DNA of 45,051 nt, filler included, from Jimgerdemannia flammicorona (lineage: Eukaryota): the NCBI GenBank assembly GCA_003990765.1. It is 2 parts of 2 records of this genome, joined end to end, with 100 filler letters (N's around TTAATTAATTAA, not from the genome) between each part and the next. Parts side by side here need not be neighbours in the genome. Positions count along the whole stretch, not along the records: positions 22,577 to 45,051 come from RBNJ01001273.1; 1 more part is not named here. One strand, given 5' to 3'. This document shows, piece by piece, positions 885-45,051 of this stretch. Each line of letters starts with the position of its first letter. Positions within the stretch are counted from its first letter, which is position 1. The notes below the pieces were generated by a model. It was not told where the DNA came from and did no database searches. It was given only the letters and a program-made list of their open reading frames with translations. The position numbers were made by a program, and so were the translations under genes.

Positions 885-937
885 ATTTAATATATCTGAT
901 AAGTGTGATATGTATCTTCATATAGTGTAGTATATAT

Positions 938-2564
938 TATCATATAGTAGTTGCTGAGTCCTTTAAATATGTCAGATTTTTTTCAAGGTGTATCTATTAG
1001 ACTAACTATAAGTTTGTTATAAGTAAGTTCTTATTGGATTATCTTCTCAAGATCTTATAGTCCTCAAACTTCTTATCTATAAACTACCTTGTTATCTCTT
1101 AGATTATTTGTATGAAATTGAGTATAAGTGAACTGAAACTAACTTTATTTCAAAAGAAATAAGAGGAGTATTTATATAAAATATAATTCAATAATTGCTA
1201 AGTTATAAAGCTAAATATAAATTCCAATAACCAAATAAAATACTGGAATACAGAAAACTACAGTTGTAAGTATAAGTTCAAGTGTCTGTACAACTGGTTA
1301 CATAAGTTCAGAATATCAGTAGAATTTTGGTGGTACAGAAAAAGAATACCAGAAGAATTTCTGAGTTATGTAAGATCAGAATGCTAAAAGAATAACAGTT
1401 ATATAAAAAAAGGATACTGGTAGAATCTAGTATTACCAAGAACTTAGAGCAGAAAGTTCAGAACTATGGAAGCTTCATCTTCATTACTATCATCAAGACC
1501 AGAAGTCAGAGACAGGATATCTTTGAAGGAGATGTAGTCTATGAACATTTTATCCATTTTATATATATTGTACATTTCATGTGCTTCATATATGTTGTGT
1601 GGAATGACATCATCATTGATGATATCATCATGAGTGATATTATCTCATTTAGTGGTGGGGAAAGCAAGGAGGTCTGGGACTCTCCAATCTATAAGGTTCT
1701 CTTCTACAAAATAAGAGACAAATGTAGGGTCTTGAAGAGGTCTAACCTGGATACTGGGGCTTTGAAATGCTGAGATCAATTCTTACAGAAATTGATCAGG
1801 ATTGTTCTTGAGGATAGGATTCCAGAACTCTCCTACCTTGTCACTATTGAGGGTAATAGTGGACTGAGCTTCTGTGGCCACTATGGCCTCTAGTATATTA
1901 GTATAGTGGGCTGACAGTTCCTTGAAGTCTGAGATCCTAGTGTACTCTAAGTTAGGGATCGACCACAGTGCATACCTAAAGATCTGATGAATCTTTTTAG
2001 CTATTCTTATTTCATATATATCCATGGAGGTAGTATCTGGTATTTCTTGGTGACCAGTCTGAGAGAATTCTCGATAGAGGAGGTTTCCTATTTCATACTT
2101 CTACTACATCTAGAGGTATTCAGTAGCAATGGTGATCCTTGTTTCCATTTTGTAGTAGTAGAGAATATAATGATAAGGGTCACCAGTATCCAGATTAAGA
2201 CTAGGAGTCCTTCTTATATAGATCCTCATGGCTCTTCTGATGTCTTGGAACATCCTTTCCTAGACTAAAGGACCTTAGTAGTTCCTGGACCTTGAGGTTT
2301 GGCAAACAGTAGGCATTTTGTTTATAGTAAGTATTTAGAACTATTCCTATGAGCTTTGTTTGAATTACTACAACTGCAGTTTCTTGATCCTTTTTTTATA
2401 TTCCTCAAGATGTCCATCTTGTGGTCACAATGACTTATGGTTGATCATCATTGCTCATCTGATAGCCTGAATAAGTCATATCATATGTATGATCTTCTTA
2501 TACTTTGATCTGATGGCTTATAAGGAAAGGCTATCTCTTGTGCTGATATCATTATTCTGAGGTC
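938..2564 (-). repeat. 3' LTR of G1 (~1.63 kb)
   Basis: Colinear with 8357-8706 plus 14552-15608, and with the reverse complement of 43529-45051. Confidence 0.9.
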
Positions 2565-2940
2565 CTCCTGAATAAGAATCTTCTCTTGAACATCTTTATT
2601 CATTAGTCCAGTCTGAAAAATTTGCTGATCCCATAACCTCTGATAGGGGGTTAAAAAGTGGTATTTATGGGCTGGTATCTTCTCTATGTATTTTGGTATG
2701 ATAGTAAAGGATCACTCTCTTCATATAGAGCAAGGGCCTGATTCTGATCTTGATCAATCAGTTGATAGTTTGAACTTCTCTGGCTTTGAAAGTCTCATAA
2801 ATGAGTAGTTGCTGGTGCTGTATCTCTTAGAGAATGGTCCAGACAGATTGTCTACTAGTTATGGGACATGCTGTTATGATTCATGAACTAGAATCTCTCA
2901 GGTGGTCATTATATTTTGCTTCTCTTATATAGATTTATAG
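1444..2940 (-). pseudogene. Extra ORF3 of G1 (env position, overlapping the LTR), unknown function
   Basis: One frame without indels from ~2940 to TAA at 1444, including track ORF 1783-2025 and ending DDSNEDEASIVLNFLL*. Stops checked inside the LTR part read CAA/CAG/TGG in the younger copy at 43.5-44.6 kb. The start is uncertain, and the 2565-2940 part has no second copy to confirm it. Confidence 0.7.
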
Positions 2941-3921
2941 TACTTCTTGAGTCTGTTCCTGTGTACTATAGTAGGCAGTATGGTCTCTGAGAGTTTTATA
3001 AGCCAAAAGGTAGTTCTCTTGATATCTTGTATATAGAAGGATTCTTTCCATTTGGGCTCCAGTTTTCATGACTATAAGGCTTCTATCATATTTTGATATA
3101 GTAGGACCTTTTCTCTGATTTGGATGAGTTTTAGAGTCTTGTGATTCTTTTTTGAATTCTTCCTTATTAGTACTTATAACTTGATGATATAATCTTCAGC
3201 CTTCTTTCTGATTTGGTATAGTCTCTAGATTTCTGAGTCAACCTATCTCCAAGTTAGGTCTAGATTTGTAGCTGAGGTTCCATCAGAATCTTCTTCTCTG
3301 AAGAGCAGTTCTCTTGGGGTAAAGTGTGTACTCTGTGATCATATATCTTATAGGACAGAGAGGGCAGTTGGGAGATAGTTATCCCAATTATCATATGTAT
3401 CTGAGATCTTTACCAGAATATTCTTAAGAGTCTTATTGGTTCTCTCTATCTGTCTATTCTCTTGAGGGTGGTATGTAGTGATCTTGATATACTGAAGCTT
3501 GTATTTCTGATATATTATCTCATAGAATCTATTGACAAATTCTGTGCTGTAGTCTGTAGTAATTTGTCTTAGTGTCTTATAGTGGCAGATGATTTCTTGA
3601 TACAGGAAGTTGGCTATAGAGAGAGCATTGACTTCTTATAATGCTCCTACTTCTATTTATTTGATAAAGAGGTCTATAATAACTATAATATAGCAGTTTC
3701 CTAATAGTATCACTGGTAGTGGTCTAATAATATCTATTGTGATATGTATAGTGGAAGGGGATAGGCTCAATTCTTAATGATCTAGATATCTGGTCTTATT
3801 GATCTTATTTCTGTTTTTAGTACTTGTCATACTCTTTGACAAATTGGTACAGGTCTTCTTCTATCTTAGGCTGCCATATAGTTCTTCTTACTTTATTATA
3901 TATATTGGTTTCTCCTAGATA

Positions 3922-4050
<129 letters not shown>

Positions 4051-5769
4051 TCCTAGGTATCCTTGTTCATGTACTTCCTTTATTACTTGATACTTCTTAT
4101 ATTCAGATATTATGAGCTTTTCTCCTTTTCTAAGTATAGTGTTATTTAGTTCAAATTGTTTCCAAGTCTGATTGATGATGATGATAGTCTATAGTTTGAG
4201 GTGATTAGGCATCTTCTGCTATCTGAGGTAGCTGATTAATTCATAGTATAGCTCTTAATTCATATTGAATAGTCTTGATGAGGGTATTTCAGAGTGTCCT
4301 TGAGAGTATATCAGCATTAGCATTGGTTCTTCCTGAGCAGTACTTGATAGTATAGTTATACTCTTACAGCCTATAGATCTATCTAGTATATATTTCTTTA
4401 GGGTTCAGAGTATAGAATAGCTAGGTGAGAGCAAAATAGTCTGTTTGAATTATGAAGTGTTTCCTGACTAGGTAGTAGTAAAACTTATCTACTACCCAAA
4501 CTACTACTAAGCATTTGAGCTTGCATGACTCATAGTTCTGTTCTGCTCTATAGATACTTTGGCTTATATAGAAGATAATATATTTATGTCTATCTTTCTT
4601 CTGAGCTAAGACTGCTCTAAGTCCTATAGCACTTATATATGTCTGCAGGATGAACTCTAGGTTCCAATCTGGTCTTCTGAGGATTGGTGCTTGGGTTAAC
4701 CTGGTCTTGAGTTCATAAAAGGTTTCTTGACATTTCTTGGTCTATTCAAATTTGGTCTCTTTCTTCAGTAGCTCATAGATAGGTACTACAATATTAGAGT
4801 ATTCTTTGATGAATCTTCTATAGTAGGAGGCCAGTCCAAGGAAGGCATGGACTTCTGTAGTTGTTCTGGATCTTAGATAGACTGCAACAGCCTCAATCTT
4901 TATGGAGTCCATGTGAATTCCAGTCTGGTTGATAAGGTGTCTTAGGTAGGTGATTTCCTAAGCTGTAAACTTACACTTCTTGGGCTTAATGTAGAGGTCA
5001 TACTCCTTGAGCTTCTTAAGAGCCAGCTATATATAGTTAATATGTTCCTGTGTGGTATTGCTGAAGATAATCACATTATAAATATAGATAAAGAGCTATT
5101 TTCTAATCTCATTGCTGAAGACTCTATTTATCATTCACTGAAAACTTGTTAGGGCATTGTACATTCCAAATAGCATTCACAAGTAGACATAGGTGATATT
5201 AGGTATAATGAAAGCTGATTTCTCACTAGTATCTTAAGTGAGACCAATCTGATAGAAGTCTGAGAACAGATCCAAGGTGGTGTAGTATTTGGCTTTGCTT
5301 TTAAGAGTAGTAAGAATTTCTTGAATATTTGACAAGAGCTACCTATCCTTCTTAGTAATTGTATTGAGCTTCCTATAATCAATACAGAGTCTTGGGGCAA
5401 ACTCTCCAGGCTTACTTCCTTTTTTTGGGATGAGGACAATAAGTGAAGCCCAGGGGCTGATAGCTTACTTAATGATTCCAGCTTCTTCCATTTCCTTGAG
5501 TTCTGCTCACAGCCATTCTCTGTAGGCAGATGATATAGGTCTGGCTTTCTGGTAGATGAGCTTGATATTACCAGTGTCAACTTCATGATCATACTTGGGT
5601 TCTTGATTGTAGATATCTCTGAAGTCTGTAGCAAGTACTCTTTCATTCTGGTATAGGATCTTGAGAAGTTGTTCTTCTAGGGGAAAGTTTTCTCTGATGA
5701 TATATGTGTGCTTGTTCTGGTCCTGGTCTTTCTTATACTCAAGTTCAGTAGTCTTGATAGTAGTATAGA

Positions 5770-6170
5770 CTTCTCTTCCAGTAGATCCAAAGTCTTGTTC
5801 TCCTCTCTTGATCTTGATGAGTTTAATGACTTCAGTGGTCTTAGGCTTCTTGACTTCATGGATCAGTATCTGGCCAATCCTGTCATACTTCTTGACTTTG
5901 AATAGAGTGGTGGGGTTGTAATTCCTAACTATAAGAAAGATCTCACCAGTATAATCAGAGTTAATTACTCCTCCTTCAACTGAGATTTTGCTTTTGGCCA
6001 GACTGCTCCTGATCTTGATAATTCCAGCATAGTTCTCTGGCAACTTGACTCCAATTTCAGTATCAAGTAGAGTAGTGGTTTGTGGTTTGAGGATAACTAG
6101 CAAGATTCATTCCTATAACTCCTTCAGTCTTGCATTCTGGGATCTTGGCTTCAGGGTAGAACTTCTTGAC
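5770..6170 (-). pseudogene. dut: Trimeric dUTPase domain within G1 pol, between protease and RT
   Basis: All five dUTPase motifs are recognisable: (A)GMNL, IKIRSSLA, GGVINSDYTGEI, DRIGQIL, RGEQDFGSTG (track ORF 5507-6103). Confidence 0.93.
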
Positions 6171-8337
6171 CTTGAGAGTGATGTTTAGTTCTTGTTTCTC
6201 CTCATTATTGCTATTAGCTTGAAGCTCTGGGGGCTGGTCATCTTCTTCAGCTTCTCTTTTTACTTCAGCAGCTTCTTGCTCATACTTTTGTTAGCAGATT
6301 TTCCTAACTTCACTAATAAAGGATCAGCAGTCATTCAGATATTCAGAGCAGTATATTCTGATACCATAGGGGTATCTTTCTTGAGAGGCCTAGCCATCAA
6401 TAATCTTGTTATACCACTGCTCATCTGTGAGCTTGGGTGTCTTGCTCTTGTTCTTGTACATTGAGTGTATGAAGATTTCTATGTCCTCTTCATCTCCTTT
6501 CTCTATATCTGGTAGTACTCCTTTGTGAATATTGATAGAGACTCATACCTTTCTTTCTCTATAATTGATTTGCATCTTCTGGATATTGAGGTCAATGACA
6601 GTCTTGGCCTTATAAAGCTATTTGTTGTCAATGAGAATATCATAGTTGGTGGTGCTTATAATAATTATATCTACTGAAATAGTAGCTCCTCCTATCTTGA
6701 TGGATACTTCTCAGATCTTACCTAGGGGGGTAGCTTATATACCATCTGCTGTGATATAGACCATCTTGATAGACTCTTCAATATCCCAGCCTAGGTAGTC
6801 AATTGCCTTCTTACTTATAAGGTATCCTCCAGTACTGGTATCAATAATGGTATCAAAGATACAATCTTCAATCTGATATGAGGTATAGACTCATATCTTG
6901 TGCTGGTCTTCAGATTTTTTTTGTACATTGTGAGCTTTTACAATCTTATACTCTTGATTTTTGGCAGTGATTGCAAGTTCTACTCTGAAGGCAGAGACTT
7001 CAGCTAGTTATCCAAAAGTAGTATTGATCTTCTATTTCTTGAGGTCCTTATAGATATCATATTGGTAGATCTTTGTCTTGTGCAACTTCTGTTCTTTCTT
7101 ACTTTCACTTTCTCCTGAGACTGAAGTAGTGCTTTCAATAATTTGACATGCAGCTTTATCTAACTCTATGTCTTGATCAATCTCCTTGAGTTGGGTCTTG
7201 CTTTGAATAGTGATAGCTGGGGTCTTCTTTGGTCTTCCAACTGGCTTACTGTTACTCTTCTTATCATAGGACTTGGATTAGGTTCTGGTATCTTTAGTAA
7301 TAGGGTAAAATTCAGACTTCTCATAGTATTCTTCATCATCAGTATTACCAATCTCCTCAATGACTACTATATTGATTTATTCTCTAGTTCTGGTAGTATT
7401 GCTTAGTTGGGCTTTGCATCTTGTTTCAGTTATATAACTCTTTGCATAGTGGCCTTCTACTCTACATCTGAAGCATATGATATTGTATTCTTCTATAGTA
7501 GTTACAAATCTCTATACTGGTCTCCTATTGGCACTTCAGACTTCTTAACAATATTACCAAGGTGTGCAGTCATCTCAGCAAACTGCTTGGTGAGTTCCTC
7601 CACTGGATCAGCTTTGGCTATCTTGGAGATAGGTGGGGATAGTTGTCTGTTTATAACTGTGGTGGGTATGATACTGGTTGGCTTTGATGACTCTATCTTG
7701 ATACTAGTTATTTTCTCTATTGAGTGTTTGGCAGAGTATCTGAAAATCTAATATCTCTGTATAAAGACCACTTTCTGATCAAGGATTAGAGCAGTTGGAG
7801 TAGACTGGGTTACTAGAGCAATTTCAGAGTAAACTTCTTTGAGAAAGGTTGAATCTGTTATTTATTTCTTAAAGGCATCATCATAGCCAGTCAAGACAAT
7901 CTGGTAGTAAATTTGAATGTAGAATGAGTTGGAATCTTCACTAAGTCTCTGGTAGATAGTATTGAGTTGATTCTTAAGAGCTTGCTTGATCTCTTCAATA
8001 TAGTATGTAGTTATGAGAAAGGTCTTCATGTTGGCAAGTTTGGCTGCACTAGTATCAGTAATGATAGCTGTATTGAACTTGTCTCTGGTAGGTTCTCTGA
8101 GGCTAACTAGTAGAAGAGCCAATTATGCATCTATGCCAAGAGCTCATATGGCAGCAAATTGTTCAAAGTTTTCAATGAAGGTCAGGATTGACTCTTTAGT
8201 AGTATATCTATAGAATGTTGGGGGATATATTTCTATCTTATCTTGAATTCTTGCAGGGGTGACTCTTGTAGTCAAAGTAGTTGTTATGGTGGTTGTTTGT
8301 TTTTCAGCTTAAAAGTGAGGAATTCATCTTGAATTAC

Positions 8338-8353: not shown

Positions 8354-8787
8354 AGTTGTCATGTAGTAGTTGCTAAGTCCTTCAAATATATCAGATTCTC
8401 TTCAAGATGTATCTCTTAGACTAACTATAAGTTTGTTATAAGTAAGTTCTTATTGGAATATCTTCTTAAGATCTTATAGTTCTCAAACTTCTTATCTTTA
8501 AACTGTCTTATTATCTCTTAGATTACTTGTATGGAATTGAGTATAAGTAAACTTGAACTGACTTTATTTCAAAGGAAATCAGAGAGGTATTTATACAAAA
8601 TATAATTCAATAGTTGCTAAGTTATAAAGCTAAATATAAATTCCAATAACCAAATAAAATACTAGAACATAGAAAACTATAGTTGTAAGTACAAGTTCAA
8701 GTATCTCATCTCTCTTCAGTACTACTCAGGTTATACAACCTTTGAAAAGCAACTACAACATTGTTTTTGGAGAAAAGAGACTAGCAA

Positions 8788-10816: not shown

Positions 10817-10847
10817 GGAAGGACTTGATAACATAACATTCTTCACT

Positions 10848-13800: not shown

Positions 13801-14500
13801 AAAGAGTAGGAATCAATAAGGAATGAGACTGGTATAGCATTTGGGCTTGGAGTGCTGAGGTGAGGAGGTGGATACTGCTGAAGTACTGGGTGGCCTGGTG
13901 GTGCATGCTGAGGCAGAATATTATGCTCAACTTCTGCTCAGATCACCTTATTAAGGGGGATTGCTTTAACTGTGAAGAGTGTTATAATGTAGGGCAGGAA
14001 GGGGGTTATGTGCAGATATCTGAACATTGGCTAGGAGAGTGTGAGGTACTTAGTACCTTTTGGCAGACCATTAGGGATCATTTGGAGATAGTGTGTAGGA
14101 GAGCTGGCATGGGAGGATTTGAGAGATAGATTGGTGGAGAGGGTGGGGAAGAAATAGCTTACATTAGGCTGGGCTTTGGCCATTTGGGTGGGGCTGGCCA
14201 GTTACTGGTTATTTTTTTTTGAGGATGGGAGGAGACTAGGCTCAGAGGTCAGGCTGCTGCAGTAGCATAGCCTTATGGAAGACACCTTGACAAGCTAGTG
14301 GCTTGGTTGGGGGGTTGCAGAGTGGTCAAAGGCATCATTTGGTAGAGAAAATCTATAGGCAGAGTGGGGGGAGAGTTGGAGTCACAGGTGAGAGAGTGGT
14401 CTTTGTTCGTGAAGATAGGAAGAGTGGCCCCCCTATGGGGATCAGGTAGTGGGAGGGTATACTGTAAACTTATTAATAGACTGATAATAAATGGCAGAGT
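10848..14500 (+). pseudogene. LINE-A ORF2: APE endonuclease, RT and C-terminal Zn knuckle, disrupted
   Basis: MNSITNIFSLNMNGL, GDFNMV, RIDWIL, WSDHW, WHLNSSLL, LDQEKAYDRV, RGVPQGDPLS, AFADD, YLGI, CFNC…HWLGEC. The 3' end is approximate. Confidence 0.92.
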
Positions 14501-16728
14501 CCAAGTAACAATAAAAAAAAAAAAAAAAAAAAAAAAAAAGTTCAAGTATCTGTACAAATTGTTATATAAGTTCAGGATGTTAGTAGAATTTTAATAGTAT
14601 AGAAAAAGGATACCAGAAGAATTTCTGAGTTATGTAAGATCAGAATATCAGAAGAATAACAGTTATATAGAAAAAAGATACTAGTGTTACTAAGAACTTA
14701 GAGCAGAAAGTTCAAAATCATAGGGGCTCTTCAATCTATGAGGTTCTCTTCTATAAAATAAGAGACAAATGTGGGATCTTGAAGAGATCTAATCTGGATA
14801 CTGGGGCCTTGGAATACTGAGATCAATTTTTGTAGAAATTTATCAGGATTGTCCTCAAGGATAGAGTTCCAGAACTCTCCTATCTCATCACTATTGAGGG
14901 TGATAGTGAACTGGGCTTCTGTGGTCACTATGACCTCTAGTGTATTGGTATGGCAGGCTGACAGTTCCTTAAAGTCTGAGATTCTAGTGTACTCCAAGTT
15001 GGAGATTGACTATAATATATGCCTGAAGATCTGATGAATCTTCTTAGCTATTCTTATTTCATATACATCTATGGAAGTGGCATCTTATATTTCTTGATAA
15101 CTGGTCTGAGGAAATTTCTGATAGAGAAAGTTTTCTATTTCATACTCCTGCTATATCCAGAGGTATTTAGTAGTAATGGTGATCCTTATTTCTATTTTAC
15201 AGTAGTAGAGAATATAATAATAAGGATCATCAGTACCTAGGTTAAGGCTAGGAGTCCTTCTTGTGCAGGTCCTCATGACTCTTCTGATGTCTTGGAATAT
15301 CCTTTTCTGGACTAAGAGGTCTTAGTGGTTTCTAGACCTTGAGATTTGGTAAGCAGCAGGCATTTTGTTTATAGTAAGTCTTTAGAACTATTTCTGTGAG
15401 CTTTGTTTGAATTGCTACTACTGTGGTTTCTTGATCCTTTTTTTATATTTCTTAAGATATTCATCTTATAGTCACAATGACTCATGGTTGGTCATTATTG
15501 CTCATCTGGTAGCCCAGATAAGTTATACTATATGATCTTCTTATATTCTAATCTGGTGACTTGTAAGAAAAGGCTGTCTCTTGTGCTGATGTCATCATTC
15601 TGAGATCACTATTATAATATATATTAGAGGGATATCTTTGTTATTATCCACTTTTGCTAGTAGGGTTTATAATCTTTTATTATAGAATACTTAAGAAAGA
15701 GTAGAGAGAAGATAGTAATTATTTATTGATACTAGCTTATGTACTTATATATATATATATTAATAATATTTATAGTAATGATACATATAGTCAGACTATA
15801 TCACTATATATTGAGTTACTATAACTAAGATATTTTAATACTTAAGTAAATATTACTACTTAATCTTATCATTTGTATATATTAATACTATTGTATAAAA
15901 TGTTTATTTTATTTTTTACTTTAAATTTCAAAATACTACAATTATAGTATAATAGAAAAAATAAAATATTTACTCTTCTGATAAATATTTAATAAATTAT
16001 TACAGTAATAGAGAGATATAAAAGATGTTTTATTAATTAGAATACTAAATATTTTCAGTATACATAGTTCAGTATTCAACTATTATTTTAATAATATAAC
16101 TGTATTATGTTGTTGAAATAAGAAGTGGGCCAAGTATAGAATATGGGTTCCAAATACTAACATTTCACTAGAAATTAGTGTATCATAAGACAACCTGTCA
16201 AACCTGAAAAGTGAGCGCCGGATGTAGGTAGATGAAGTGACCGCTGGATGCAGGTAGATGTCCATCAGATGCGGATGCTCACTAGATGCAAATGTCAGAT
16301 GTCCTTAATGTAGATATCAGATAGCCCCAGATGTCCCGGATGCAAAAAAATTCGTGATGCTAGTAGAGCTCGAGAATGCTACCTGCTTTCATCTCTCTGG
16401 AGAATGACTGCCTGCGGTGACCTAGAAGATTTCTAGGTGCCATCTAGAAGTTGTAGAGTCCATTTCTAGACGTTTCGTAGACGACGTCTTTGGTTGTAGA
16501 GTAATGTACTTAGGTGTCGCTTTGAGGAGCTGTGAAATTGTAGTTGTAGAGAAAAATGCCCGACTCGGAAGCGACCGGAACGAAATGAGAGAAAAGAGCG
16601 AGGGCATCGAATACGAAAAAGTCCTCCATGTTGTTTGTCGACTAGTCCCTGTACTTCGCCACCATCCGTCTCAGAGGTAGCTGCATCACAAATCCTGGTA
16701 CCGTACGTTGGATACCTGCGCCATCATT

Positions 16729-16820: not shown

Positions 16821-17065
16821 CTAATATGCTCAAATAGGACAAATTCCGATGCTGAGGGGTGAGATAGATTAAAAAAGGGAGAGAGGTTCTCAGAGTGAAT
16901 GGTCATTAGATCATGTATGCAGATAACCTTAATATACATGTGCCCCTTGCGAAATACACTTTCGGCTGAGCATCGATTCGGAATAAAAAGCGAATCTCTC
17001 ATTTACCACAATTCATACTGCACACACCGTACACATTTCTGACTCACTTTATTGATTCAAGAAAA

Positions 17066-18502
17066 ATGTCACTTACCACTCGACGTCGCCCATATACATA
17101 TCCATCTTCCAGAGAGGAAGCGGAATCCCTCCTCACCGCCGTCGACCTCCAACTCGCCGACCTCTCCGACCTTCGCGACATCTCAAAGGGCAAATCCGTA
17201 GACCCAAGCAACTACGAAATTGCCATTGATGACTACGAATCAGAGCTTGTCGCCTTCAAGACGTTCCTCCGGGATCGTATTCAAGTGATGGGTCATAGAG
17301 AAGCACAAAGGACCGACGCCGCTCTTCTGGAGAATTTTCAGAGGCTTGAAGAGCAAGAACGCCAAGACCACGAACTCGCGTTTCTTCTGTCCCGCGGTTT
17401 GAGCCTGAACGGCGCACAGGCCAGGATGGAGTTGCCATCTGCGGAGCCAAGTACTGCCGGTCCGAGGTTGAGCCGCCCACCGGCCAGGGTAGAGTTGCCA
17501 TCTGCGGAGTCAAGTTCTGCCGGTCTGAGATTGAGCCGCACACCGACCAGAGTGGAGTCGCCATTAGTTCGTGCGGAGTCAAGTACCACCCGTCTGAGTT
17601 CGACCAATATGTTCGGCCGCGCGTTGGGCAACTTGAAATGGTCGAGTAATACCGAGCCCATAATGGATTCTGCAGAATGCGCTTCGTGCTTGAACGCGAC
17701 CGACGATCTCCACAAGATGGACAACTGTGACCATTATTTTTGCACCGATTGTTTGCGTACGCTCTTCACTCTGGCATCCAAAGACGAGAGCCTACTTCCC
17801 GTTTCCTGTTGCAGTAAGCCAATTAACCTCCAGCTCGCTCACCACGTCCTCAAGTCAAACGATCTCAAGAACCTCCTTCGCGCTGTTCTGGAGCACCAGA
17901 CTCCCAACAAACTCTACTGCCCTGTCCAAACCTGCTCGAGATTTATTCCCCTCACCGACATCTCCCCTGCAAACGGTAAAATTACCTGTCCAGGTTGTGC
18001 CTGTTTCATCTGTGTCCACTGCAAGCAGCGCGCGCACGGCACACAAGACTGTCCTGAGGACGCCGACGCCCATTCGTTCGCCGCATTTGCGCAGGAGCAA
18101 GGGTGGCAGCGGTGCGGCCGGTGCGGCAAGTATGTCGAGCTCGAGCAAGGATGTTATCATATGACGTGCGCCTGCTCGTACCAATTCTGTTACCTATGCG
18201 GAGTTGAATGGAAGAAATGTGAGTGCCGGCAATGGGATGAGAATAGGCTCATCACTATGGCGAGGGAGCGTGTGCACATCCAGCAGCCGCAATTGAGAGG
18301 AGAGCGGTTGCGTGCAGAGGTACAAGAGTTTGCCCAGCGGCTTAGGAACGACCACGAGTGCACGCATCAGTGGAGAAAACAAAACCTGGCAGCTCGGAGG
18401 AATTGCGAACGTTGTAGGTTCAGCATGGCACACTATTGCTATAACTGTTCAACCTGTCTTATTAACGTGTGCCATACTTGCCGGTTCCACAGGATTAGGT
18501 AG
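17066..18502 (+). CDS. RBR (RING1-IBR-RING2) E3 ubiquitin-protein ligase, fungal IBR-finger type, intronless, 478 aa
   Basis: RING1 CASC…CDHYFCTDC…CC; IBR CPVQTC…CPGC…CVHC…H…C; RING2 CGRC…GCYHMTCACSYQFCYLC with the catalytic Cys motif; C-terminal Cys-rich CERC…CSTC…CHTC. Open frame, CpG-rich. Confidence 0.95.
   Translation: MSLTTRRRPYTYPSSREEAESLLTAVDLQLADLSDLRDISKGKSVDPSNYEIAIDDYESELVAFKTFLRDRIQVMGHREAQRTDAALLENFQRLEEQERQDHELAFLLSRGLSLNGAQARMELPSAEPSTAGPRLSRPPARVELPSAESSSAGLRLSRTPTRVESPLVRAESSTTRLSSTNMFGRALGNLKWSSNTEPIMDSAECASCLNATDDLHKMDNCDHYFCTDCLRTLFTLASKDESLLPVSCCSKPINLQLAHHVLKSNDLKNLLRAVLEHQTPNKLYCPVQTCSRFIPLTDISPANGKITCPGCACFICVHCKQRAHGTQDCPEDADAHSFAAFAQEQGWQRCGRCGKYVELEQGCYHMTCACSYQFCYLCGVEWKKCECRQWDENRLITMARERVHIQQPQLRGERLRAEVQEFAQRLRNDHECTHQWRKQNLAARRNCERCRFSMAHYCYNCSTCLINVCHTCRFHRIR
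17420..17600 (+). repeat. In-frame 63-bp tandem repeat (about 3 units) in the RBR linker
   Basis: ARMELPSAEPSTAGPRLSRPP / ARVELPSAESSSAGLRLSRTP / TRVESPLVRAESSTTRLS, with units starting at 17420, 17483 and 17546. Confidence 0.9.
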
Positions 18503-23833: not shown

Positions 23834-24820
23834 ACTAGTTCTCTTATCTCTTTACTTTGAACTGTTTTAATCTGAGGTTTATTTTCTCTAGATATTAGAG
23901 ATATTTATATAAGTTTGCTAGCTATATAGCAGCTAAGTTAGAACTTCTTTTCTTGTGAGTTATTTTATATAGTTGAGAAATCTATATATTTATATAATTT
24001 ATATATCTATATAATTGTAAGTTTTATATAATTATACTTTTTATACAATTATACAAATTATATAACTGTAAACTTGAGTAATTACTAACTATAATACTAT
24101 ACTATATTGAGAATCAGATTTAGATACTATGATCAAATATATATCTTCTGATTATATTTTCTAATTTAGATCAACTATTATAACTTTCTTCTAAATAAGT
24201 AATTTCATCTCTAAATTATCTTATGTAAACTCCTAAGTTTTCACTAGTTATATATTCTTATATATTATAATATATGTAGTAGATGTCTAACTATAGAAGT
24301 ATAGTAGATTTCTATATCTTGAAACTTGATCTTATTCTGACTCTCTCAGAGTCTTTGGGTATAGAAATGTAAGTTCAAAGTATATCTATTTATAGGCTTA
24401 CTAGTTCTCTTACTTTTTCTTTGCTTTGAACTATTTTAATCTGAGATTTATTTACTTTAAATACTGGGGATATTTATATAAGTTTGCTAGCTATAAGATA
24501 GCTAAGTTATGACTATATTTCCTATAAGTCATTTTTCACAAGTATGGATTCTTAATTTGTAAAATTTCAATAATTATCAAAATTCAACATTTGTTAAATC
24601 TCAATATTTGTGAAATAACTATTATTTATATAGCTATACTATATTTGAGAATTAGTTTAGATACTATGATCAAATATCTATTTCTCTGATTTATATTTCT
24701 AATTTAGAATAACTATCACAACTTTCTTCTAAATAGGTATTTTATCTCTGAAGTATTTTATTTACTTGAACTCTCAAGCTTCTATAAGTTATGTATATCT
24801 CTTTATACTATATAATTTAT
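23834..24820. repeat. Diverged direct duplication (~23834-24270 and ~24400-24820), probable 3' LTR region of element G2
   Basis: Both copies begin ACTAGTTCTCTTA…CTTTGAACT.TTTTAATCTGAG and share GATACTATGATCAAATAT…CTAATTTAGA. They lie 3' of G2 pol. Confidence 0.7.
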
Positions 24821-27800
24821 GTCATTATATTCTCTAAATAATATTTTTTAATATATCTAAAGTCTCTTATAACTACTTCTCAGAAATAAGCTAAGACTGG
24901 CTTATTATCTTTAAATAACTTATATACTCTTTTAATAATAGTGATATAGATATAAGAGAGCTAATACTCTAATTTAGTCTTCTTTTCTCATTTCTGATTA
25001 CAAATTTAGTAGCTATCCCAACTTGAAGTATTCTTAAAACTTGTTTCAGTTCTAATAGACCTTGAAGTGTAAGATTTATTATAAGTATATCTGTATTATA
25101 TTTTGAATACTATTGAAGAATTTCTCTATTGTGGGTGGCTCAGTAGTATACCATCATCTTTCTATAGCTTATTAGATAGTACTAGTAATTTTGAGAGCTA
25201 TAATAGTACTTTGTTGAAGAGCTATGATACTTCTTGAGTTAGTTTTGATGAATGGTAGTAGGGATAATTATACTTAAGAGTTTTTATAGTCAAAAGATAG
25301 TTCCTTTTATATCTTGTACAAAGTAAGATCCTTCTTACTTAGACTTCAATTTTTGTGACCATAAGACTTCTACTATGTTCTAATATACTAAAACTTTGTC
25401 TACTATCTTAATAATCTCTAGAGGTTTATAAATATTTTCTACATTATTCTACTATAGAGCTTATACTTTGATTATATAATTCTCAGCCTTCTTCCTGATT
25501 TGATATAATCTCTATATCTCTATATTTATATATTTCTATATAGTATCTCCATTTGATAATAGAATTTCTTAAGAACTTTCTTCTCTAAACAATATATTTC
25601 TCATAGAGTAAAATAGGTGCTTTGTAATTAAATATCATAATATATTGGTAGATAGTGGTCCTAATTTTTGTAGTTATTATAGATCTTAGTGATAATATTC
25701 TTAAGAGTCTTATTGATCCTTTTTGCTTATCTATTTTCTTGAGGATAATAAGCTATAGTCCAAATGTACTAAATCTTATATTTCTTATAGAAAACCTCAA
25801 AGAACTAGTTTATAAATCCTGTTCCTCTGTCTATTATTACTTATACTAGGGTCTTGAATTAGCAAATAATTTCTTTGTAAAAAAAATCAGCAATTGACTA
25901 AGTATTAGCTTCCTTGAGTAATTCTGCTTCTATCTATTTTATAAAAAGGTCTATAATAATAATGATATATTAGCTGCTATTCAAAGTCAAGAGTAGAGAG
26001 CTAATTACATCTATTGCAATATGAGCAAATAGTATTAGTTCTATATATACTGATTCTTGGATCTGATTTTGCTAATCTTGTTTCTATTTCTGATATTTAT
26101 CATAGGTCTTAACAAATTGTCTAATATCTTTCTTTATTTCTGGTCACTATATTGTTCTTCTTACTTTATTATAGATATTTCTTTCTTTTAGATAGCTAAG
26201 TTTATATACTGTCTTCATTATTTGTTTCTTTTTATACTTATACTCAGATATAACTAGTAGTTTTTCTTTCTTTAGAGTTTCTTTATTAGTTTTGAATTGT
26301 TTTTATATTCTACTAATAATCATTTGTATCCATTCTTTCAGATATTGGAGCATCTTTTACTATCTTAGATAGGTGATAATTCTATAGTAGAGCTCCTTAT
26401 TCATAGTTGGTTTACTGGTTGGAAGTTTTTCAGAATATGTATCTATAAGAGAGTATCTATATTGATATTAGTTTTTTCTAAATAGTATATAATAGTTATA
26501 TCATATATCTGTAACTTCATAATCTATCTGATATAGATTCCTTTGGGTTGTCCAGTAGTTAGTAGTTAAGTAAGGGCTGAGTAGTTTGTCTAAATGATAA
26601 AGTATCTTTCAGTAAGATAATAATATAACTTTTCTATAACTCAGATAACTGCAAGATATTCCAACTTATAGAATTTATATTCTTTTTCAGCTTCTTGGAT
26701 TCCTTGACTAATATATATAATAATATATTCTACTTTATCTTTTCTCTAAGCTAGAACTACTCCTAATCTGACTATACTTATATCTATCTATAAGATGAAT
26801 TTTTGAGTTCAATCAGGTCTCCTCAGGATGGATACCTGAGTCAGCCTGATCTTGAGTTTGTTGAATACTTTCTATTATCTATCAGTCTACTGAAACTTGA
26901 TATTCTTCTTATTGAGTTCATAGATTGGACCTATAATATTGGAAAATTCTCTAATAAATTTGTAATAGTATGAGCCTAGTCTCATAAAGACTTTGCCTTC
27001 AGTAATAATAGTGGGTCTTGGATATGCTACTACTGCTTATATCTTGAGAGAATCTGTGTATATTCTATCTCAGTTGATGATGTAGCTAAGATAAGAGATC
27101 TTAATTTCTATAAATTTGCACTTCTTAGACTTGATATATAGGCTATACTTCCTTAGCTTCTCTATTATCTACTAAATATACTATATATACTCTTCTGGTA
27201 TCTTACTGTAGATGATCACATTATCTATATAAACTACTATCTATCTTCTTATATCATAGCAGAAGATTTTACTAGACTTGCTAGAGTATTATATATTCTG
27301 AATAATATTTATAGATAGATATACATAGGTTTTATCTGGGATAATAAAGGCTGATTTCTTACTTGCTATTTCTATGAGATCAATTTTGTAGAATTCTGAG
27401 TATAGATCTAAGATACTGTAATACTGTACTTCTCTTTTAAGATTATAAGAATATCACTAATAAGAGATAGTAATTAGTAATTCTTTTTGGTAACTAGATT
27501 GAGTTTTCTATAGTCAGTATAGAGTCTTGGAGTAAATTCTCCTGACTTACTTCCTTTCTTTAGAGCTAGCACTACTGGTGAAGTTCAGGGATTGCTGACT
27601 TTTTTAATAATACTAGTTTCTTCTATCTATTTAATTTCTTCTCTGAGCCATTCTCAATAGACAGATGGAATTGTTCTTACTTTTTGATAAATTGGATCAG
27701 TATCTTCTATATATATATCATAGTAGTAGTGTAGGGTCTTTCTTTTAATATTCTTGAAATCTGTAACTAGAATATCCTCAAATTTATAAAATATCTTCTT

Positions 27801-33692: not shown

Positions 33693-34188
33693 ATTGTATA
33701 AATATTCTTATTCTTTACTTAAATAAAGCTCACAATATTTTCTCTCAGAATTTTTTTAAGAATACTTAAATCTATAAGTATCTCTTTAAACTACTTTAGA
33801 TTTATCAGAATTATCTATCTTAGCCACTTCCTCTTAAAGAAACTAGAACTATTATAGATTACCATCAAATCTGAATCAAGCTAGAAGATTTCTAAGACTA
33901 TGTTCAAGACTCTCTTTAGACTTTATAAATTTCTAGTCTTAGCATTTGATCTTACTAATATATCTGCTATATTCTAGACCCTCATGAACAAGATATTTAA
34001 GGACCAACTATTTATCTTCTTATTGGTATATCTTGATAATATCTTAATCTTTAGTATAACTAAAGAAGAATACTTTAAGTATATCTGAATAGTCTCAGAG
34101 ATCCTGTAAAAATATAAGCTATATATAAAGCTCAAGAAATGTGAATTCTTTAAAAAAATAAGTTAAATATCTTGACCATATTATCTCT

Positions 34189-35319
34189 TTTTTTTTTTTT
34201 TTTTTAACTATCTATAACATATCATATGTCCTCATAAAACATCAGTAGCCCCATTCCACCCTAATCTCAACCTACCTTCATACTTACCCAGCCTTATACC
34301 TTTAGGGTGTGAGTTGTGACCTCACTGCCTGAGTAACTAGATCCTCCTACCTGGTCTGTCCCACCCAGTGAGTATAGGTTGTGAGCCCCAACTATCTCAA
34401 GTATTTGGCATCTAGTACATCTGACCTACTTCTATTAGTATCTTCTGTCTTACCCATCTAGTCTGTCTTGTCCATCTTGCCCATCTTGTCTGCCTGTATT
34501 ATCCATATTACCATCTTGCCATCTTGCCCATCTTGCCCATCTTGCCCACTCATGTTGCCTGCATTGCCCATATTGCCCATATTGCCTATATTGCCTATAT
34601 TATCCATTTTGCCTATTTTGCCCATCTTGTCTATTTACTCATATCACTCATCTTGCCATCTTACCCATCTTGCCTATCTTGTCTGTCTTGCCCACCTATA
34701 TTGCCTATATTATCCATGTTGCCTATATTGCCTATGTTGCCCATATTGCCTGTATTGCCCATATTACTCATATTGCCTATATTGCCTATCTATATTGCCT
34801 ATGTTACCTGTTTTACCTGTTTTGCCTGTTTTGCCCATCTTGCCCATATCACCTGTCTTGCTATCTACCTATCTTATCTATGTTGCCCATCTTGCTATCT
34901 ACCTATCTTGTCCATGTCATCCATCTTACTGTCTTACTGTCTTGCCTATCTTATCTATCTTGCCCATCTTACCTGTCTTACCTATCTTGCTCATATCACC
35001 TGTCTTATTGTCTTGCCATCTTATCTGTCTTGCTCATCTTGCCCATCTTGCCCATCTTGCCCATCTTGCCCACCCATATTGCCCATGTTGCTCATATTGC
35101 CCATATTGTCTGTTTTACCCATTTTGCCCATATTGTCTGTCTTACTGTCTGCCTATCTTGCCCATATCACCCATCTTGCCATCTTGCCATCTTGCCTGTC
35201 TTGCCCATCTTGCTCATCTTGTCTATCTTGCCTACCCATGTTGTCCATATTGCCCATGTTGACTCAGAAGGTTGTCTACCAAACCATTGTAACCAGTAAG
35301 GTAGCAGAGAAAGGATCAG
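34189..35319 (-). mobile_element. Non-autonomous poly(A) retroposon with a 9-bp minisatellite core, inserted in the chromovirus RT
   Basis: 17-bp TSD TTGAC(C/T)ATATTATCTCT (34172-34188 / 35320-35336), T run 34189-34205, and a head resembling the local LINE 5' ends. Confidence 0.85.
34440..35260. repeat. Degenerate 9-bp tandem array (TTGCCCATC/TTGCCCATA)n, ~820 bp
   Basis: Directly visible, and the source of the LPI/CPY/AHL low-complexity ORFs in three frames. Confidence 0.95.
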
Positions 35320-40191: not shown

Positions 40192-41345
40192 TTACTCAAT
40201 TTGGCTAATAGAGCCATCCTCATGTATCTTAAAATTCAATATAACTAGAATTATATCATTCTTATTCTCTTCCTTATTTTCTTCAGGAAGTCCAGCTAAA
40301 TCATTTTCTATATCTTCCAGAAAGTTGTTGAAGTTATCTTCTAACAAAATTAGTAAGTTATCACTATTCTCTAAGTTATTATTGATAATATATATTACTA
40401 AGGAGTATAAGATCATTCTATTCTTAATATCTCTAGTTAATAGTAAGGTCATCCACAAAATAGAAAACATTTGTTAAATTCTGAGAGAAGTAGACTCTTA
40501 AGGAGGGGGGCCTTGAAATAGTACAATTAGACCATAGATGAACTGATCTGAATTATCCTCTAGAATAGAGTTCTAAAGGTCTTAAACCTCATCACTCTTG
40601 ACCTATAATGATAGATTGAGTTTCTTCTGTAATCATTTCTTCAAGATAATCTATATGATAGTTTATTAGTTCTTAAATATTAGAGACTTTAATATATTCC
40701 AGATTAGGAATGGTCTAGAGTATATATCTGAAGATCTAATGAACTCTTTTAACTAATTTCTATTTATGTCTATTTATGTATATAATGTCTGTAATTTCTT
40801 AGGAGTTGACTTGTGAGAATTCTTAGTAGAGTGATATCTCTTCTTATATTTTTACTATATCTAGAAGTACTTAGTAGTAGTGATTCTTATCTTCATTTCT
40901 CAGTAGTTAAGAGTATAGTAACAGGGGTCTCTTATATAGAGATTCAGACTAGGGGTCTTTCTTGTATATAATCTCATTACTCTTTTGATATCAGTAAATA
41001 TCAGTTCTTGAACTGATGGATCTGAGTAACTCCTTAACCTTACTATTTAGCAGATAGTAGGTATTTTGTTTTATAGAAAGTCTCTTATTTATAGTTGATG
41101 TTTTTTACTTCTTCTCTTAATACTTCTTTTATATCTTGAGGGTCTTTTTCTTTAATCCATAAGATAGGGTCACCTGACTTATAGTAATATACTATTAGAC
41201 TTATTATGAGTCATTATGAGTTCAGATAGGAATTATCTTCTAATTAAGATAAGTTATAGTTGAGTCATATCTTGCAACTAGTGGCTTACAAAGTTAAGAC
41301 AGTCTTCTAAATTCTGATATCACTGGTTTTGAAGATATCATTACA
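40192..41345 (-). mobile_element. Old, diverged copy of the ORF-bearing LTR (related subfamily)
   Basis: The minus strand encodes KRVH*IFRYIL*TIPNLEYIKVSNI and an acidic tail ending VILNFK. The terminus …CATTACA at 41345 keeps the TG start. The left boundary is unclear. Confidence 0.75.
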
Positions 41346-43530
41346 CTATATAAAAATGAAAATAGTTGAGTTTATGAACTATCAAATAAATATATAAATA
41401 GAATATGAATGAAACTCACTATAGTATAAATTGAACTATTGCTGTCTTTGGTCTTTAAGCTCATGTTCTTCAAAATTTAACAATAATATCTGTTTTTAGA
41501 TTACTATTATACTTTGAGAAAAGGTCTTTAAGAAAAAGATATTAAAGAAGTATATATATCTACTGTAAGCTTCTAGATCACTTTATTAAACTTATATTTT
41601 TAGCAGAGATTACTGATACCTATGAATCTACCAAATTATAATATGAAAATTCAATTTATATTCATAAACAGGCTATAATATACAAACTATAATTCATAAA
41701 CTTATTATCAAAAACAACTTACCTGTTTCTTTTTCTATCTCACTTAACTATCTGTTCTATATATTTGACCAAATGAGCCTCTACATCATTGTTCTGAAGT
41801 ACTTTATTATCTGGAAGTATCTCATCATTATCTGAAAGCATTTTACTATATGAAAACACCTCATCATTCTGAATTATAAGCTTGGATTATTTATTATTCT
41901 CTTCTCTACCTCTGCTTTATTTACTCTCATTCTATTCATCTTGATCTTATACAGTCTTTTGCTATTTGGCTGCTCTCTTTTCTGGGTATAATGTGGTCTG
42001 CTTTTAGTATTATATATATTTATGGTCTGGTACAGCCTGTCTATAGTCTGCTTCTTAATTTTATACATCTTTGTAGTCTTCTCCTTAGTTTTATATATCT
42101 TTATAGTTTGGTACAGCCTGTCTATAGTCTGCTGCTCCTTGGTTTTACAGAACTGACATAATTTGTTCATAGCTTGGTATATATTATTTATAGCTTAGTA
42201 CTTATTATTTATACTAGAATATATTTTATTTATCTTAAGATATGATCTGTTGTCTTTAGATATGAAAAGATTGTAGTAGGGGAGAGGATAAGAAAAGATA
42301 TAATTCTTCTAAGTGAAGACCTCTTTTTATACTTATAATATTCATAATGAATATATATATATTAACAGATATCAGAAAGTCTAATAAGTGAGAGCTTACT
42401 TATATTAAGTTAATATAATTATATAATGAGTTTAATTAATATAATAATATATATAAATATAAGTATATTAAGTAAGTATATTAAGTAAGTATAAGTATAT
42501 TAAGTAGGTAAAGAGCATTAAGCAAGTACAAGCACATTAAGCAAGTATAAATACATTATATAAGTACAAAAGTATAAAGCCAATCAGATAAAGAATTCTA
42601 TTTTAGACTAGTATGTTTTGTAATTATGAACTTACTAATAAACTTATAGTTAAAATTCATGAACTCAAAATATTATATATATTTCAAATTCTTCTTTACT
42701 TTTCAAATCTAATATAAATATAAAGCTTTCTTACTCATACTGTAACCTAAAGTATAAATTTACCTCAGGATTGACTTAACATATTTGTAAGATGTATGAT
42801 ATACTTACATAATATTAGAATGATTAGTTTATTCTTGAATTTCCAGTTCATTAAGATTTTAGTAACTTTAATATTACACTATCATTATCTATAAATTTAT
42901 CTATAGTTCATAAGTTAATCTTGAATTTCACATATATTTCAAGTTCAAGCAATCTATGTAAATGAACTTAGAAGATTTCAAATAATTATACTAAGTATAT
43001 ATATATAATTCAAATTAAGAGGAAAGATAATTGTTTAGGAAGAATAACAATTCAATTTAAGATCAAAGAAGTCCATCTACTATATTAGAGTTTGATGAGA
43101 ATTATATTATTTATAAACCAACTGGTAGTCAGATTATTAATAGTAAGAAAGTACTTATATAGCATAATGAATTTATTTTTAAACTCAAATAAGTACCTAT
43201 AACTGATATAAATAATCCTTTATATTCTTGAAAGAATGATAGGGAAATTTGGTTCATAAATCTATTATTTTGAAGTGAAAATATATCCTGAAAGATTGTA
43301 AATAAATGTTTTAATATATTTGCAGATAGAAGAATTTCAATAGTAAATAGGCCTCTTTAGTACACAAACTCAAGAGAGATGATAAAACTTTTAGATATAA
43401 TAGCTAAAAACAGAGTAATACATAATTAAACAGTTAATGTTTCTGTTAAATAAATGAACATTCAGTAATTCTCTTTTTCAAATTAGCTCTTTAATTGTAA
43501 AGTTTTTAATATTACTTATTATAATAGTGA

Positions 43531-44614
43531 CCCCAGAATGATGACATCAGCACAGGAGACAGCCTTTCCTTACAAGTCACCAGATCAGAGTACAAGAAGA
43601 TCATACGGCATATGAGATGAGCAATGATGACCAACTGTGAGTCATTGTGACCACAGCACAAGCATCCTGAAGAATATAAAAGAAGGATCAAGGAACTGCA
43701 GTAGCAGCAACCAACAAGAACCACCAATCCCAAAATAGCTCAAAGACTTACCATAAACAAAATGCCTGCTGCCTGCCAAACCTCAAGGTCAAGGAATCAT
43801 CAAGGTATCTCGGTCAAGGAAAGGATGTTCCAAGACATCAGAAGAGCCATGAGGACCCACTCAAGAAGGACTCCTAGCATCAACCTGGGTACTGCAGACC
43901 CTTATCACTTTATCCTCTACTGCCATGAAATGGAAACAAGGATCACCATTGCCACCGAATGCCTCCAAATGTGGCAGGAGTACGAAATAGGAAACCTCCT
44001 CTGCCAGGAGTTCCCATAGGCCAGCCCTCAAGAGCTACAAGATGCTACTCCCATGGACCTACATGAGGCAAGGACAGCAAAGAAGATCCATCAGATCTTC
44101 AGACATGCACCATGGTCAATCCCCAACTTGGAGTATGTTAGAGTCTCAGACTTCAGAGACCTGTCATCCCACCGCATCAATACACTAGAAGCCAGGGTAG
44201 CCACAGAAGCCCAGTCCACCATCACCCTCAACAGTGAAGAAGTAGAAGACTTCTGGCACCCTATCCTTCAGGACAACCCAGACCAATTCCTGCAAGGATT
44301 GATCTCAGTATTCCAAGGCCCAAGCATCCAGGTTAGATCCCCCCAAGACCCCACATTTGTCCCCTATTTTGTAGAAGAGAACCTCATAGACTGGAGAGCC
44401 CCAGACCTTGTTCCCAACATCCCCGCCACAGCCAAATGTGATGACATCATCGATGACATCATCCCGCGCGACATACCTGAAGCACGCGAACTGTGCGATG
44501 AGGCATATGAAGTATGCGAAACATGTGACCTATGATGAATTCGCAGACCTCATCTCCTTCAGTGATAATGATGATGATGACGAAGCTCCCATGATCCTGA
44601 ACTTTCTGCTCTAA
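43531..44614 (+). pseudogene. Best-preserved copy of the LTR-encoded part of ORF3
   Basis: Track ORFs 43762-44019 and 44053-44535 are the same frame, separated by one TAG. The frame extends back to the LTR start with three more stops. One frameshift near 44530 precedes the tail DDDDEAPMILNFLL*. Confidence 0.75.
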
Positions 44615-44625
44615 GTTCTTTGTTA

Positions 44626-44752
44626 CACTGGATAATGCCAGCACTGGTATTCTCATGTAACACTGGATAATGCCAGCACTGGTATTCTGAGGTGACACGA
44701 AATTGTTCCAGCACTGGTATTTTGATATGGTACTAAATAATGCCAGCCCTGG
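44626..44752. repeat. Short tandem repeats in the LTR, downstream of ORF3
   Basis: ACACTGGATAATGCCAGCACTGGTATTCT twice (35-nt period), plus partial CCAGCACTGGTATT and ATAATGCCAGC copies. The core CCAGCACTGG is a near-palindrome. Confidence 0.8.
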
Positions 44753-45051
44753 AACTTAGTAGTTTTAGTTATTGGAATTTATATTTAGCTTTATATCTTA
44801 GCAACCATTGAATTATATTTTGTATAAATATCTCTCTGATTTCCTCTGAAATAAAGCCAGTTCCTCTCAGTGCAATACACATACTTCCTTGCAAGCAATC
44901 TAAGAGATAACAAGACAGTTAAATATAAGAAGTTTGAGGACTATAAGACCTTGGGAAGGCACTCCAATAAGAACTTGCTTATAATAACTTGAGTTAGTCT
45001 AAGAGATACACCTTGAAGAGAATCTGGCATATTTGAAGAACTCAGCGACCA

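What the first reader, a model, noticed from the sequence alone, without database searches (positions are those of the whole stretch)
24844..24936. ORF3 core motif is conserved in a second, divergent dUTPase Gypsy
Seen: downstream of G2 integrase the minus strand encodes IKRVYKLFKDNKPVLAYF*EVVIRDFRYIK. This aligns without gaps to G1-family AKKIHQIFRHAPWSIPNLEYVRVSDFRDLS (pattern K[KR][IV]xx[IL]F…Vx[VI]xDFR), although the DNA is not obviously alignable by eye. In G2 the ORF is short (~25200-24810) and appears to lie outside the LTR. Inference: protein-level conservation at the same position in two families points to an ancestral, selected module defining a lineage. From memory and unverified, the motif resembles an 'A.KIY.LF…I..I' helical motif in expanded hypothetical proteins of early-diverging fungi.
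Basis: partly seen in the sequence, partly recalled or inferred. Interest (0 to 1): 0.75.

Follow-up and report, generated by a model that had tools for sequence, protein, structure and literature searches.

The report
Swappable accessory gene of Gypsy retrotransposons
The flagged stretch is a decayed piece of a small, unnamed extra gene that five different families of Gypsy-type jumping genes in this genome carry at their tail end and appear to have exchanged with one another; its job, possibly switching the element on, is untested.

Summary
The motif is real. It is the core of a 153-aa gene (ORF3) that overlaps the end of G2 integrase; the window copy is broken. Intact copies show G1 and G2 ORF3 are homologous (0 of 1000 shuffles; leave-family-out HMM E 3e-6, decoys 0.45). 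The gene does not mark one lineage. Five dUTPase Ty3/Gypsy families in this genome carry it, two of them chromoviruses. It lies inside the LTR in three families and before the LTR in two. G1 and G2 are sisters by RT, but their ORF3s are not (AU p=0.001); G1's groups with chromovirus G3's. G3 and G4 share 255 bp of post-integrase DNA at 76% although their RTs are 36% identical. The gene is under purifying selection and has a TATA box 62-88 nt upstream. The protein is soluble, mainly helical, often acid-tailed, with no family or fold match. Best guess: a DNA-binding activator or anti-silencing factor (about 45%). The recalled link to expanded fungal proteins was not confirmed. The scan found this family before on other DNA of this genome.

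The parts
24844..24936 (-). Flagged motif: predicted basic helix plus following loop of the ORF3 core in G2 (one stop inside)
24762..25225 (-). G2 ORF3 remnant (153 codons in intact relatives); many stops, frame broken near 24966 and near 24795
   Evidence: tblastn of intact P0011; comparison with natural copy L070
25305..25311 (-). TATAAAA box inside the integrase D-I-K-G codons, 86 nt before the ORF3 start
   Evidence: sequence; 37 of 40 G2 copies against 0 of 12 G1 copies at the same codons
25230..29569 (-). G2 pol remnant: protease region, dUTPase (28228-27917), RT (27698-26827), integrase without chromodomain (to 25230); gag start and 5' LTR missing
   Evidence: Pfam on intact-frame relative L107
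24722..24738 (-). G2 polypurine tract
24276..24720 (-). G2 3' LTR (a second, partial LTR copy follows at 24209-23832)
937..2564 (-). G1 3' LTR (about 1.5-1.6 kb) containing ORF3 at 2316-1447
2937..8320 (-). G1 internal region: gag, protease, dUTPase (6103-5777), RT (5557-4691), integrase (ends 2937)
8356..8706 (-). 3' part of the G1 5' LTR; its 5' part is at 14538-15619, separated by a 5.8-kb insertion (inferred)
14538..15619 (-). 5' part of a G1 LTR with a broken, shortened ORF3 (15363-14713)
43517..45049 (+). G1 LTR running to the window end, with ORF3 (43762-44611; broken by a stop at 44017-44019 and near its end)
40198..41064 (-). Decayed ORF3 of a G1-related subfamily (P0008-like); its element context was not resolved

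Best explanation
The stretch is a dead copy of a real third gene of Ty3/Gypsy retrotransposons. SHOWN: it is one protein family with a shared core of about 120 aa; at least five dUTPase-bearing families in this genome carry it (G1, G2, G4 without chromodomain; G3, G5 with); it lies just before the polypurine tract (G2, G3) or inside the LTR (G1, G4, G5); it is under purifying selection; its tree conflicts with the RT tree. INFERRED (about 0.85): it travels as a 3' cassette, exchanged between unrelated co-resident elements by recombination, plausibly template switching during reverse transcription, and a shifted polypurine tract puts it inside or outside the LTR. INFERRED (about 0.7): it is transcribed from its own TATA promoter 62-88 nt upstream, independently of gag-pol, so solo LTRs of G1, G4 and G5 could still express it. 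INFERRED (about 0.45): the product is a nuclear regulator. A helix-turn-helix-like core with a basic A-K/R-R-I-H/Y helix would bind the element's own DNA, and the acidic tail would recruit host transcription machinery or counter silencing.
Against: The HTH-like fold scores are at noise level for helical proteins and are tied with unrelated hits. The E. coli YhcG N-terminus did not align (probability 0.1). G2 ORF3 has no long acidic tail (pI 6.8). The G1+G3+G4 HMM misses the window's own decayed G2 copy, and the G2-only HMM misses G3. The ORF3 tree has long branches; the place of G4 changed between trees. Faster evolution of G2 ORF3 could inflate the conflict. Copies within a family share ancestry, so the TATA counts amount to a few independent observations. 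Most copies used for dN/dS were picked by protein similarity, which biases dN down. A dUTPase chromovirus without the gene exists (L179, best E 19 inside the element), so the gene is dispensable for at least one family.
Confidence: 0.5

Rival explanations
1. ORF3 is an RNA-binding factor for export, packaging or transcript processivity of the element's RNA, working like CERV of Cer1 or retroviral Rev.
Against: That model had pLDDT 48.6. The better model did not list M2-1 among its VIA hits. Acidic tails and a place inside the LTR fit transcriptional control better (inference).
Confidence: 0.2
2. ORF3 acts through protein contacts: it blocks a host defence enzyme (methyltransferase, RNAi or hypermutation machinery) or restricts competing elements, without binding nucleic acid.
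For: ORF3 diverges fast (16-39% identity between families against 36-66% for RT). The host mutates these elements heavily at CpG (87 of 161 sites) and CpA (239 of 890) between paired LTRs. All five carrier families also have dUTPase.
Against: No partner is known. Conserved basic residues on one helix suggest a nucleic-acid ligand (inference).
Confidence: 0.18
3. One reading: ORF3 was inherited vertically from a common dUTPase-Gypsy ancestor and marks one lineage; the tree conflict reflects unequal rates and losses.
For: All five carrier families have dUTPase; G2, G3 and G5 share a Cys/His knuckle beside it. L137 keeps the G2 layout. The deep ORF3 branches are unresolved.
Against: Carriers fall on both sides of the chromovirus split. 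RT rejects G1+G3 (p-AU 4e-45) and ORF3 rejects G1+G2 (0.0012). DNA 76% identical between G3 and G4 cannot date from their RT split. dUTPase sits after the protease in G1 and G2 but before it in G3 and G5.
Confidence: 0.08
4. ORF3 is an env-like membrane protein.
For: It occupies the env position in G2 and G3.
Against: Highest 19-residue hydropathy is at most 1.05 in 9 of 9 proteins; the predicted fold is soluble.
Confidence: 0.02
5. The G1-G2 similarity is chance between AT-rich decayed repeats.
For: Only 6 of 30 identities in the window; hhalign on decayed copies was weak.
Against: Intact proteins, bridging relatives such as P0030, and leave-family-out HMMs with reversed decoys are significant.
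Confidence: 0.02

Closest known systems
Non-env ORF3s of bdelloid rotifer LTR retrotransposons (Juno, Vesta, TelKA; PMC5408684, abstract and passages read)
   Same: dUTPase-bearing Gypsy-type elements; an ORF3 after pol; the same ORF3 type turns up in unrelated lineages, read by the authors as gene sharing.
   Different: Those ORF3s are recognisable enzymes or membrane proteins (DEDDy, GDSL, env, TM). This one matches no family, has an upstream TATA box, and lies inside the LTR in three families.
Sense additional ORFs between pol and the 3' LTR (aORF-3S) of plant and insect elements (PMC7264820, first third of the text read)
   Same: Position and orientation in G2 and G3; present in most copies; unknown function.
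   Different: Those are described mostly as env-like, with transmembrane segments and splicing. This one has no TM segment, and the part read describes no LTR-internal form.
dUTPase-bearing fungal Ty3/Gypsy elements (PosPlaTy3, Phanerochaete, Tuber; PMC2864245, passages read)
   Same: dUTPase at variable places in Pol; the figure legend lists an 'add. ORF' of unknown function in some fungal elements.
   Different: Whether that 'add. ORF' is this family was not checked; the figure is not held and the supplements (.doc) were not opened.
VANC anti-silencing proteins of VANDAL DNA transposons (PMC6719617, passages read)
   Same: Model for the proposed function: an element-encoded, family-specific accessory protein that counters methylation.
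   Different: A DNA transposon of Arabidopsis; no sequence comparison was made and no function is shown here.
CERV of C. elegans Cer1 (PMC10309623, abstract read)
   Same: A non-env regulatory protein encoded by an LTR retrotransposon.
   Different: Made from a spliced mRNA and needed for RNA export; no sequence comparison was made.
LTR-borne or LTR-overlapping retroviral genes: MMTV sag, HIV nef, foamy virus Tas/Bel (recalled, not read)
   Same: An accessory gene in or beside U3; Tas is an LTR transactivator made from an internal promoter.
   Different: Vertebrate retroviruses; analogy only.

Membership tests
Ty3/Gypsy LTR retrotransposon (host element G2) | Pol order protease-RT-RNase H-integrase | tested here: met
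   Pfam on L107: protease, dUTPase, RVT_1, RT_RNaseH, then Integrase_H2C2 and rve; the window copy aligns over 5.3 kb at 71-72%
Ty3/Gypsy LTR retrotransposon (host element G2) | Two LTRs with TG...CA ends, primer-binding site and polypurine tract | tested here: met
   12 G2 loci examined show paired 450-500 bp LTRs at 89-95% identity; the window copy lacks its 5' LTR
Chromovirus | Chromodomain at the integrase C-terminus | tested here: met
   Met for G3 (PF00385 E 2e-11) and G5 (E 4e-16); not present in G2 or G4; G1 integrase ends like G2's
Env / env-like ORF3 | Transmembrane segment | tested here: not met
   max 19-residue hydropathy at most 1.05 in 9 of 9 proteins
Sense additional ORF (aORF-3S / ORF3) | Conserved sense ORF between pol and the 3' LTR in most copies | tested here: met
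   G2: 57 of 58 loci; G3. In G1, G4 and G5 it lies inside the LTR instead.
   AU tests
ParB/KorB-type or DUF3102 helix-turn-helix domain | Significant sequence or fold match | tested here: inconclusive
ParB/KorB-type or DUF3102 helix-turn-helix domain | DNA binding | not testable with these tools
   needs gel shift or DAP-seq
   not retrieved by the G1+G2 profile or the wider profile; no reference sequence was available; names of the distant hits could not be looked up

The most novel reading that the evidence does not exclude
LTR retrotransposons of this host share a mobile 'regulator cassette': a self-promoted gene for a previously unnamed DNA-binding activator or anti-silencing protein. The cassette moves between chromoviruses and non-chromoviruses and in and out of the LTR, so that large numbers of solo LTRs are expression units able to act in trans on full-length elements. 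This would be a retrotransposon counterpart of VANC or foamy virus Tas in a probable fungus.
Probability: 0.3. Interest if true: 0.85.

Novelty: new variant of a known kind. Interest (0 to 1): 0.55.

Why it matters
Accessory genes of LTR retrotransposons are mostly uncharacterised, and a 2019 review knew only three transposon-encoded anti-silencing systems, all from plants (PMC6719617, passages read). Here one small, soluble, well-folding protein family is kept under selection by five divergent high-copy families in a genome that mutates its repeats heavily. Intact natural copies exist, so function can be tested directly. The family also documents exchange of a 3' module across the chromovirus boundary and a gene moving into and out of the LTR.

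Tried and rejected

Relatives elsewhere. None in viral contigs, prokaryote genomes (P0031 only) or phages (P0031 only). P0029 and P0031 were not found in G000 with these queries. P0028 hit only G2 copies weakly. The P0008 search used too strict a cut-off, so the context of the 40.7-kb copy is unresolved.

HTH test. Testing DUF3102 directly failed for lack of reference sequences. YhcG-N did not align.

Expression. No RNA holder listed; two runs of guessed type held small shares and are uninformative.

Other ideas. That G1's 400-bp post-integrase spacer is a decayed G2-type ORF3: DNA scores were only 1-2 SD above shuffles (4 to 20 of 200), unproven. One search used a wrong reading frame and was repeated. 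The 'RT' probe was in the wrong frame and was replaced from then on. The host organism was not identified; 'fungus' is an inference.

Full report
OBSERVATION. The flagged 30 residues are at window 24936-24847 on the minus strand, and G1-type motifs are at 44077, 2001, 15048 and 40753. The ungapped match has 6 of 30 identities and score 24. It is the best non-G1 window among 89,918, and 7e-5 of shuffles reach it. The window copy is AT-rich and broken, so I turned to better copies in the same genome (G000, 231 Mb, unnamed; a fungus by inference only) and in protein collections.

THE G2 GENE. DNA and protein searches of G000 gave 3770 and 2013 candidates (candidates, not copy numbers). A protein search returned 13 relatives, one complete at 153 aa (P0011); stop-free genomic copies exist (L107, L136, L147). 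Its ATG overlaps the last integrase codons. It follows the integrase directly in 57 of 58 loci and stops about 42 nt before a 450-500 bp LTR. G2 is gag-protease-dUTPase-RT-RNase H-integrase, without chromodomain.

THE G1 GENE. It is 277 aa (P0003) and lies inside a 1.5-kb LTR. Both LTRs of L117 and L121 carry it. 38 of 40 starts lie within 300 nt behind the LTR start motif, 12 of them behind a polypurine tract.

HOMOLOGY. P0011 against P0003 scores 80, against 30.5+-4.7 for shuffles (0 of 1000). Of the 20 pairs tried, the five with P0012 were not significant and several others were marginal. A G1+G2 profile against 1.84 billion representatives gave 12 hits, including distant P0024-P0031. P0030 alone hits G2 copies at E about 1e-8. 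On contig L137 it overlaps the end of a G1/G2-type integrase exactly as in G2. An HMM of G1+G3+G4 without G2 finds G2 copies at 3e-6 to 2e-4 among 12,774 tiles, with the best reversed decoy at 0.45. It misses the window's decayed copy, and a G2-only HMM finds G4 (4e-5) and G1 weakly but not G3. Homology is therefore well supported but remote.

FIVE CARRIER FAMILIES. Searching G000 with P0025 and P0026 revealed two more families. G3 is a complete chromovirus: gag-dUTPase-protease-RT-RNase H-integrase-chromodomain-spacer-ORF3-PPT-LTR (L149). G4 (L176) has RT 42% identical to G1, dUTPase, no chromodomain, and ORF3 inside a 2.5-kb LTR; this pol link rests on one locus. G5 emerged from the HMM (E 2e-8 with a model lacking G5; 0.011 with G1+G3+G4 only). 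It has dUTPase and a chromodomain, with ORF3 inside an LTR of about 1.9 kb (L103, internally deleted). One dUTPase chromovirus (L179) has no ORF3 hit.

NOT ONE LINEAGE. RT identities: G1-G2 66%, G1-G3 41%, G1-G4 42%, G3-G4 36%. ORF3 identities: G1-G2 21%, G1-G3 39%, G1-G4 29%, G3-G4 34%. RT trees join G1 and G2 (99-100) apart from the chromoviruses. ORF3 trees join G1 and G3 (92/92, 90/92). AU tests reject G1+G2 for ORF3 (p 0.0012; 0.0027 with G5) and G1+G3 for RT (4e-45). Long branches make deep ORF3 nodes unreliable, G5 has no RT in my loci, and no named reference RTs were in the trees. Independent of trees, G3 and G4 share 255 bp of post-integrase DNA at 76%, and G2 and G4 share a 67-bp LTR core at 88%. 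I infer exchange of 3' modules between co-resident elements; template switching is the likely route, from general retroelement biology.

SELECTION AND EXPRESSION SIGNALS. dN/dS is 0.12-0.30 within and between families, similar to integrase (0.19). Between two G2 subfamilies synonymous sites are saturated (pS 0.84, pN 0.19). These copies were chosen by protein similarity. In 24 of 29 copies chosen by DNA similarity (5 had too short a match), transversions per site are 0.022, 0.016 and 0.043 at codon positions 1-3. The integrase residues D-I-K-G are written with TATAAAA in 37 of 40 G2 copies, 86 nt before the ATG, but in 0 of 12 G1 copies, whose ORF3 has its own TATAAAA 83-88 nt upstream inside the LTR (40 of 40). 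G3 (14 of 14) and G4 (9 of 9) have TATA-like boxes at 71-73 and 62 nt. The ATC/ATA difference is a transversion, so C-to-T decay does not explain it. No transcript evidence was obtained.

MECHANISM. My best reading is a separately transcribed nuclear regulator that binds the element's own DNA and activates it or shields it from silencing (function about 0.45). The host decays these elements at CpG (87 of 161 sites differ between paired LTRs) and CpA (239 of 890), which gives such a protein a motive. RNA export or packaging (0.2) and protein-level antagonism of host defence (0.18) remain open. An env role and chance are excluded.

KNOWN WORK AND NOVELTY. ORF3 sharing between unrelated dUTPase-bearing elements is described in bdelloid rotifers (PMC5408684, abstract and passages). 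Sense additional ORFs are reviewed for plants (PMC7264820, first third read). Fungal dUTPase Gypsy elements and an unexplained 'add. ORF' appear in PMC2864245 (passages; supplements not opened, and they may bear on novelty). Nine literature searches (listings only) showed no description of this family; the library is open-access only. The scan has noted the family many times on other pieces of this genome, several times with homology left unproven. Verdict: a real, unnamed, swappable accessory gene; new variant of a known kind; interest 0.55.

Noticed in passing
window 8711-14539: A 5.8-kb G-rich (plus strand) element with a poly(A) run at 14513-14539 splits the G1 5' LTR; related ends lie at 23826, 29583 and 33687. 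Probably a LINE; not tested.
   Followed up: no
   Followed up: partly
L107, L155, L103, L126 (pol, beside dUTPase): A Cys/His knuckle (C-P-H-G-I...C-x2-C) next to dUTPase is shared by G2, G3 and G5 although dUTPase lies on different sides of the protease; no Pfam hit.
   Followed up: partly
L149:7490-7740 and the matching spacer of L176: The 255-bp post-integrase segment shared by G3 and G4 may hold a further small ORF or an RNA element.
   Followed up: partly
ten LTR pairs in L091-L149: Differences between paired LTRs are almost all C-to-T type, at CpG (87 of 161) and CpA (239 of 890), far fewer at CpT (25 of 978): methylation decay plus a RIP-like bias.
   Followed up: partly
L176 pol: G4 appears to have two dUTPase-like segments in tandem and an unusually long region between protease and RT.
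   Followed up: no
window 16970-18502 (+): Host gene with RING and IBR domains (RBR-type E3 ligase) between the repeats.
   Followed up: no
window 34448-35232: An 88-copy 9-bp tandem array inside a decayed RT region (33897-35581) that has a chromovirus-type integrase piece at 36623-36979.
   Followed up: no
G1 and G2 loci: G1 and G2 share the same primer-binding site and polypurine tract although their LTRs do not align.
   Followed up: partly
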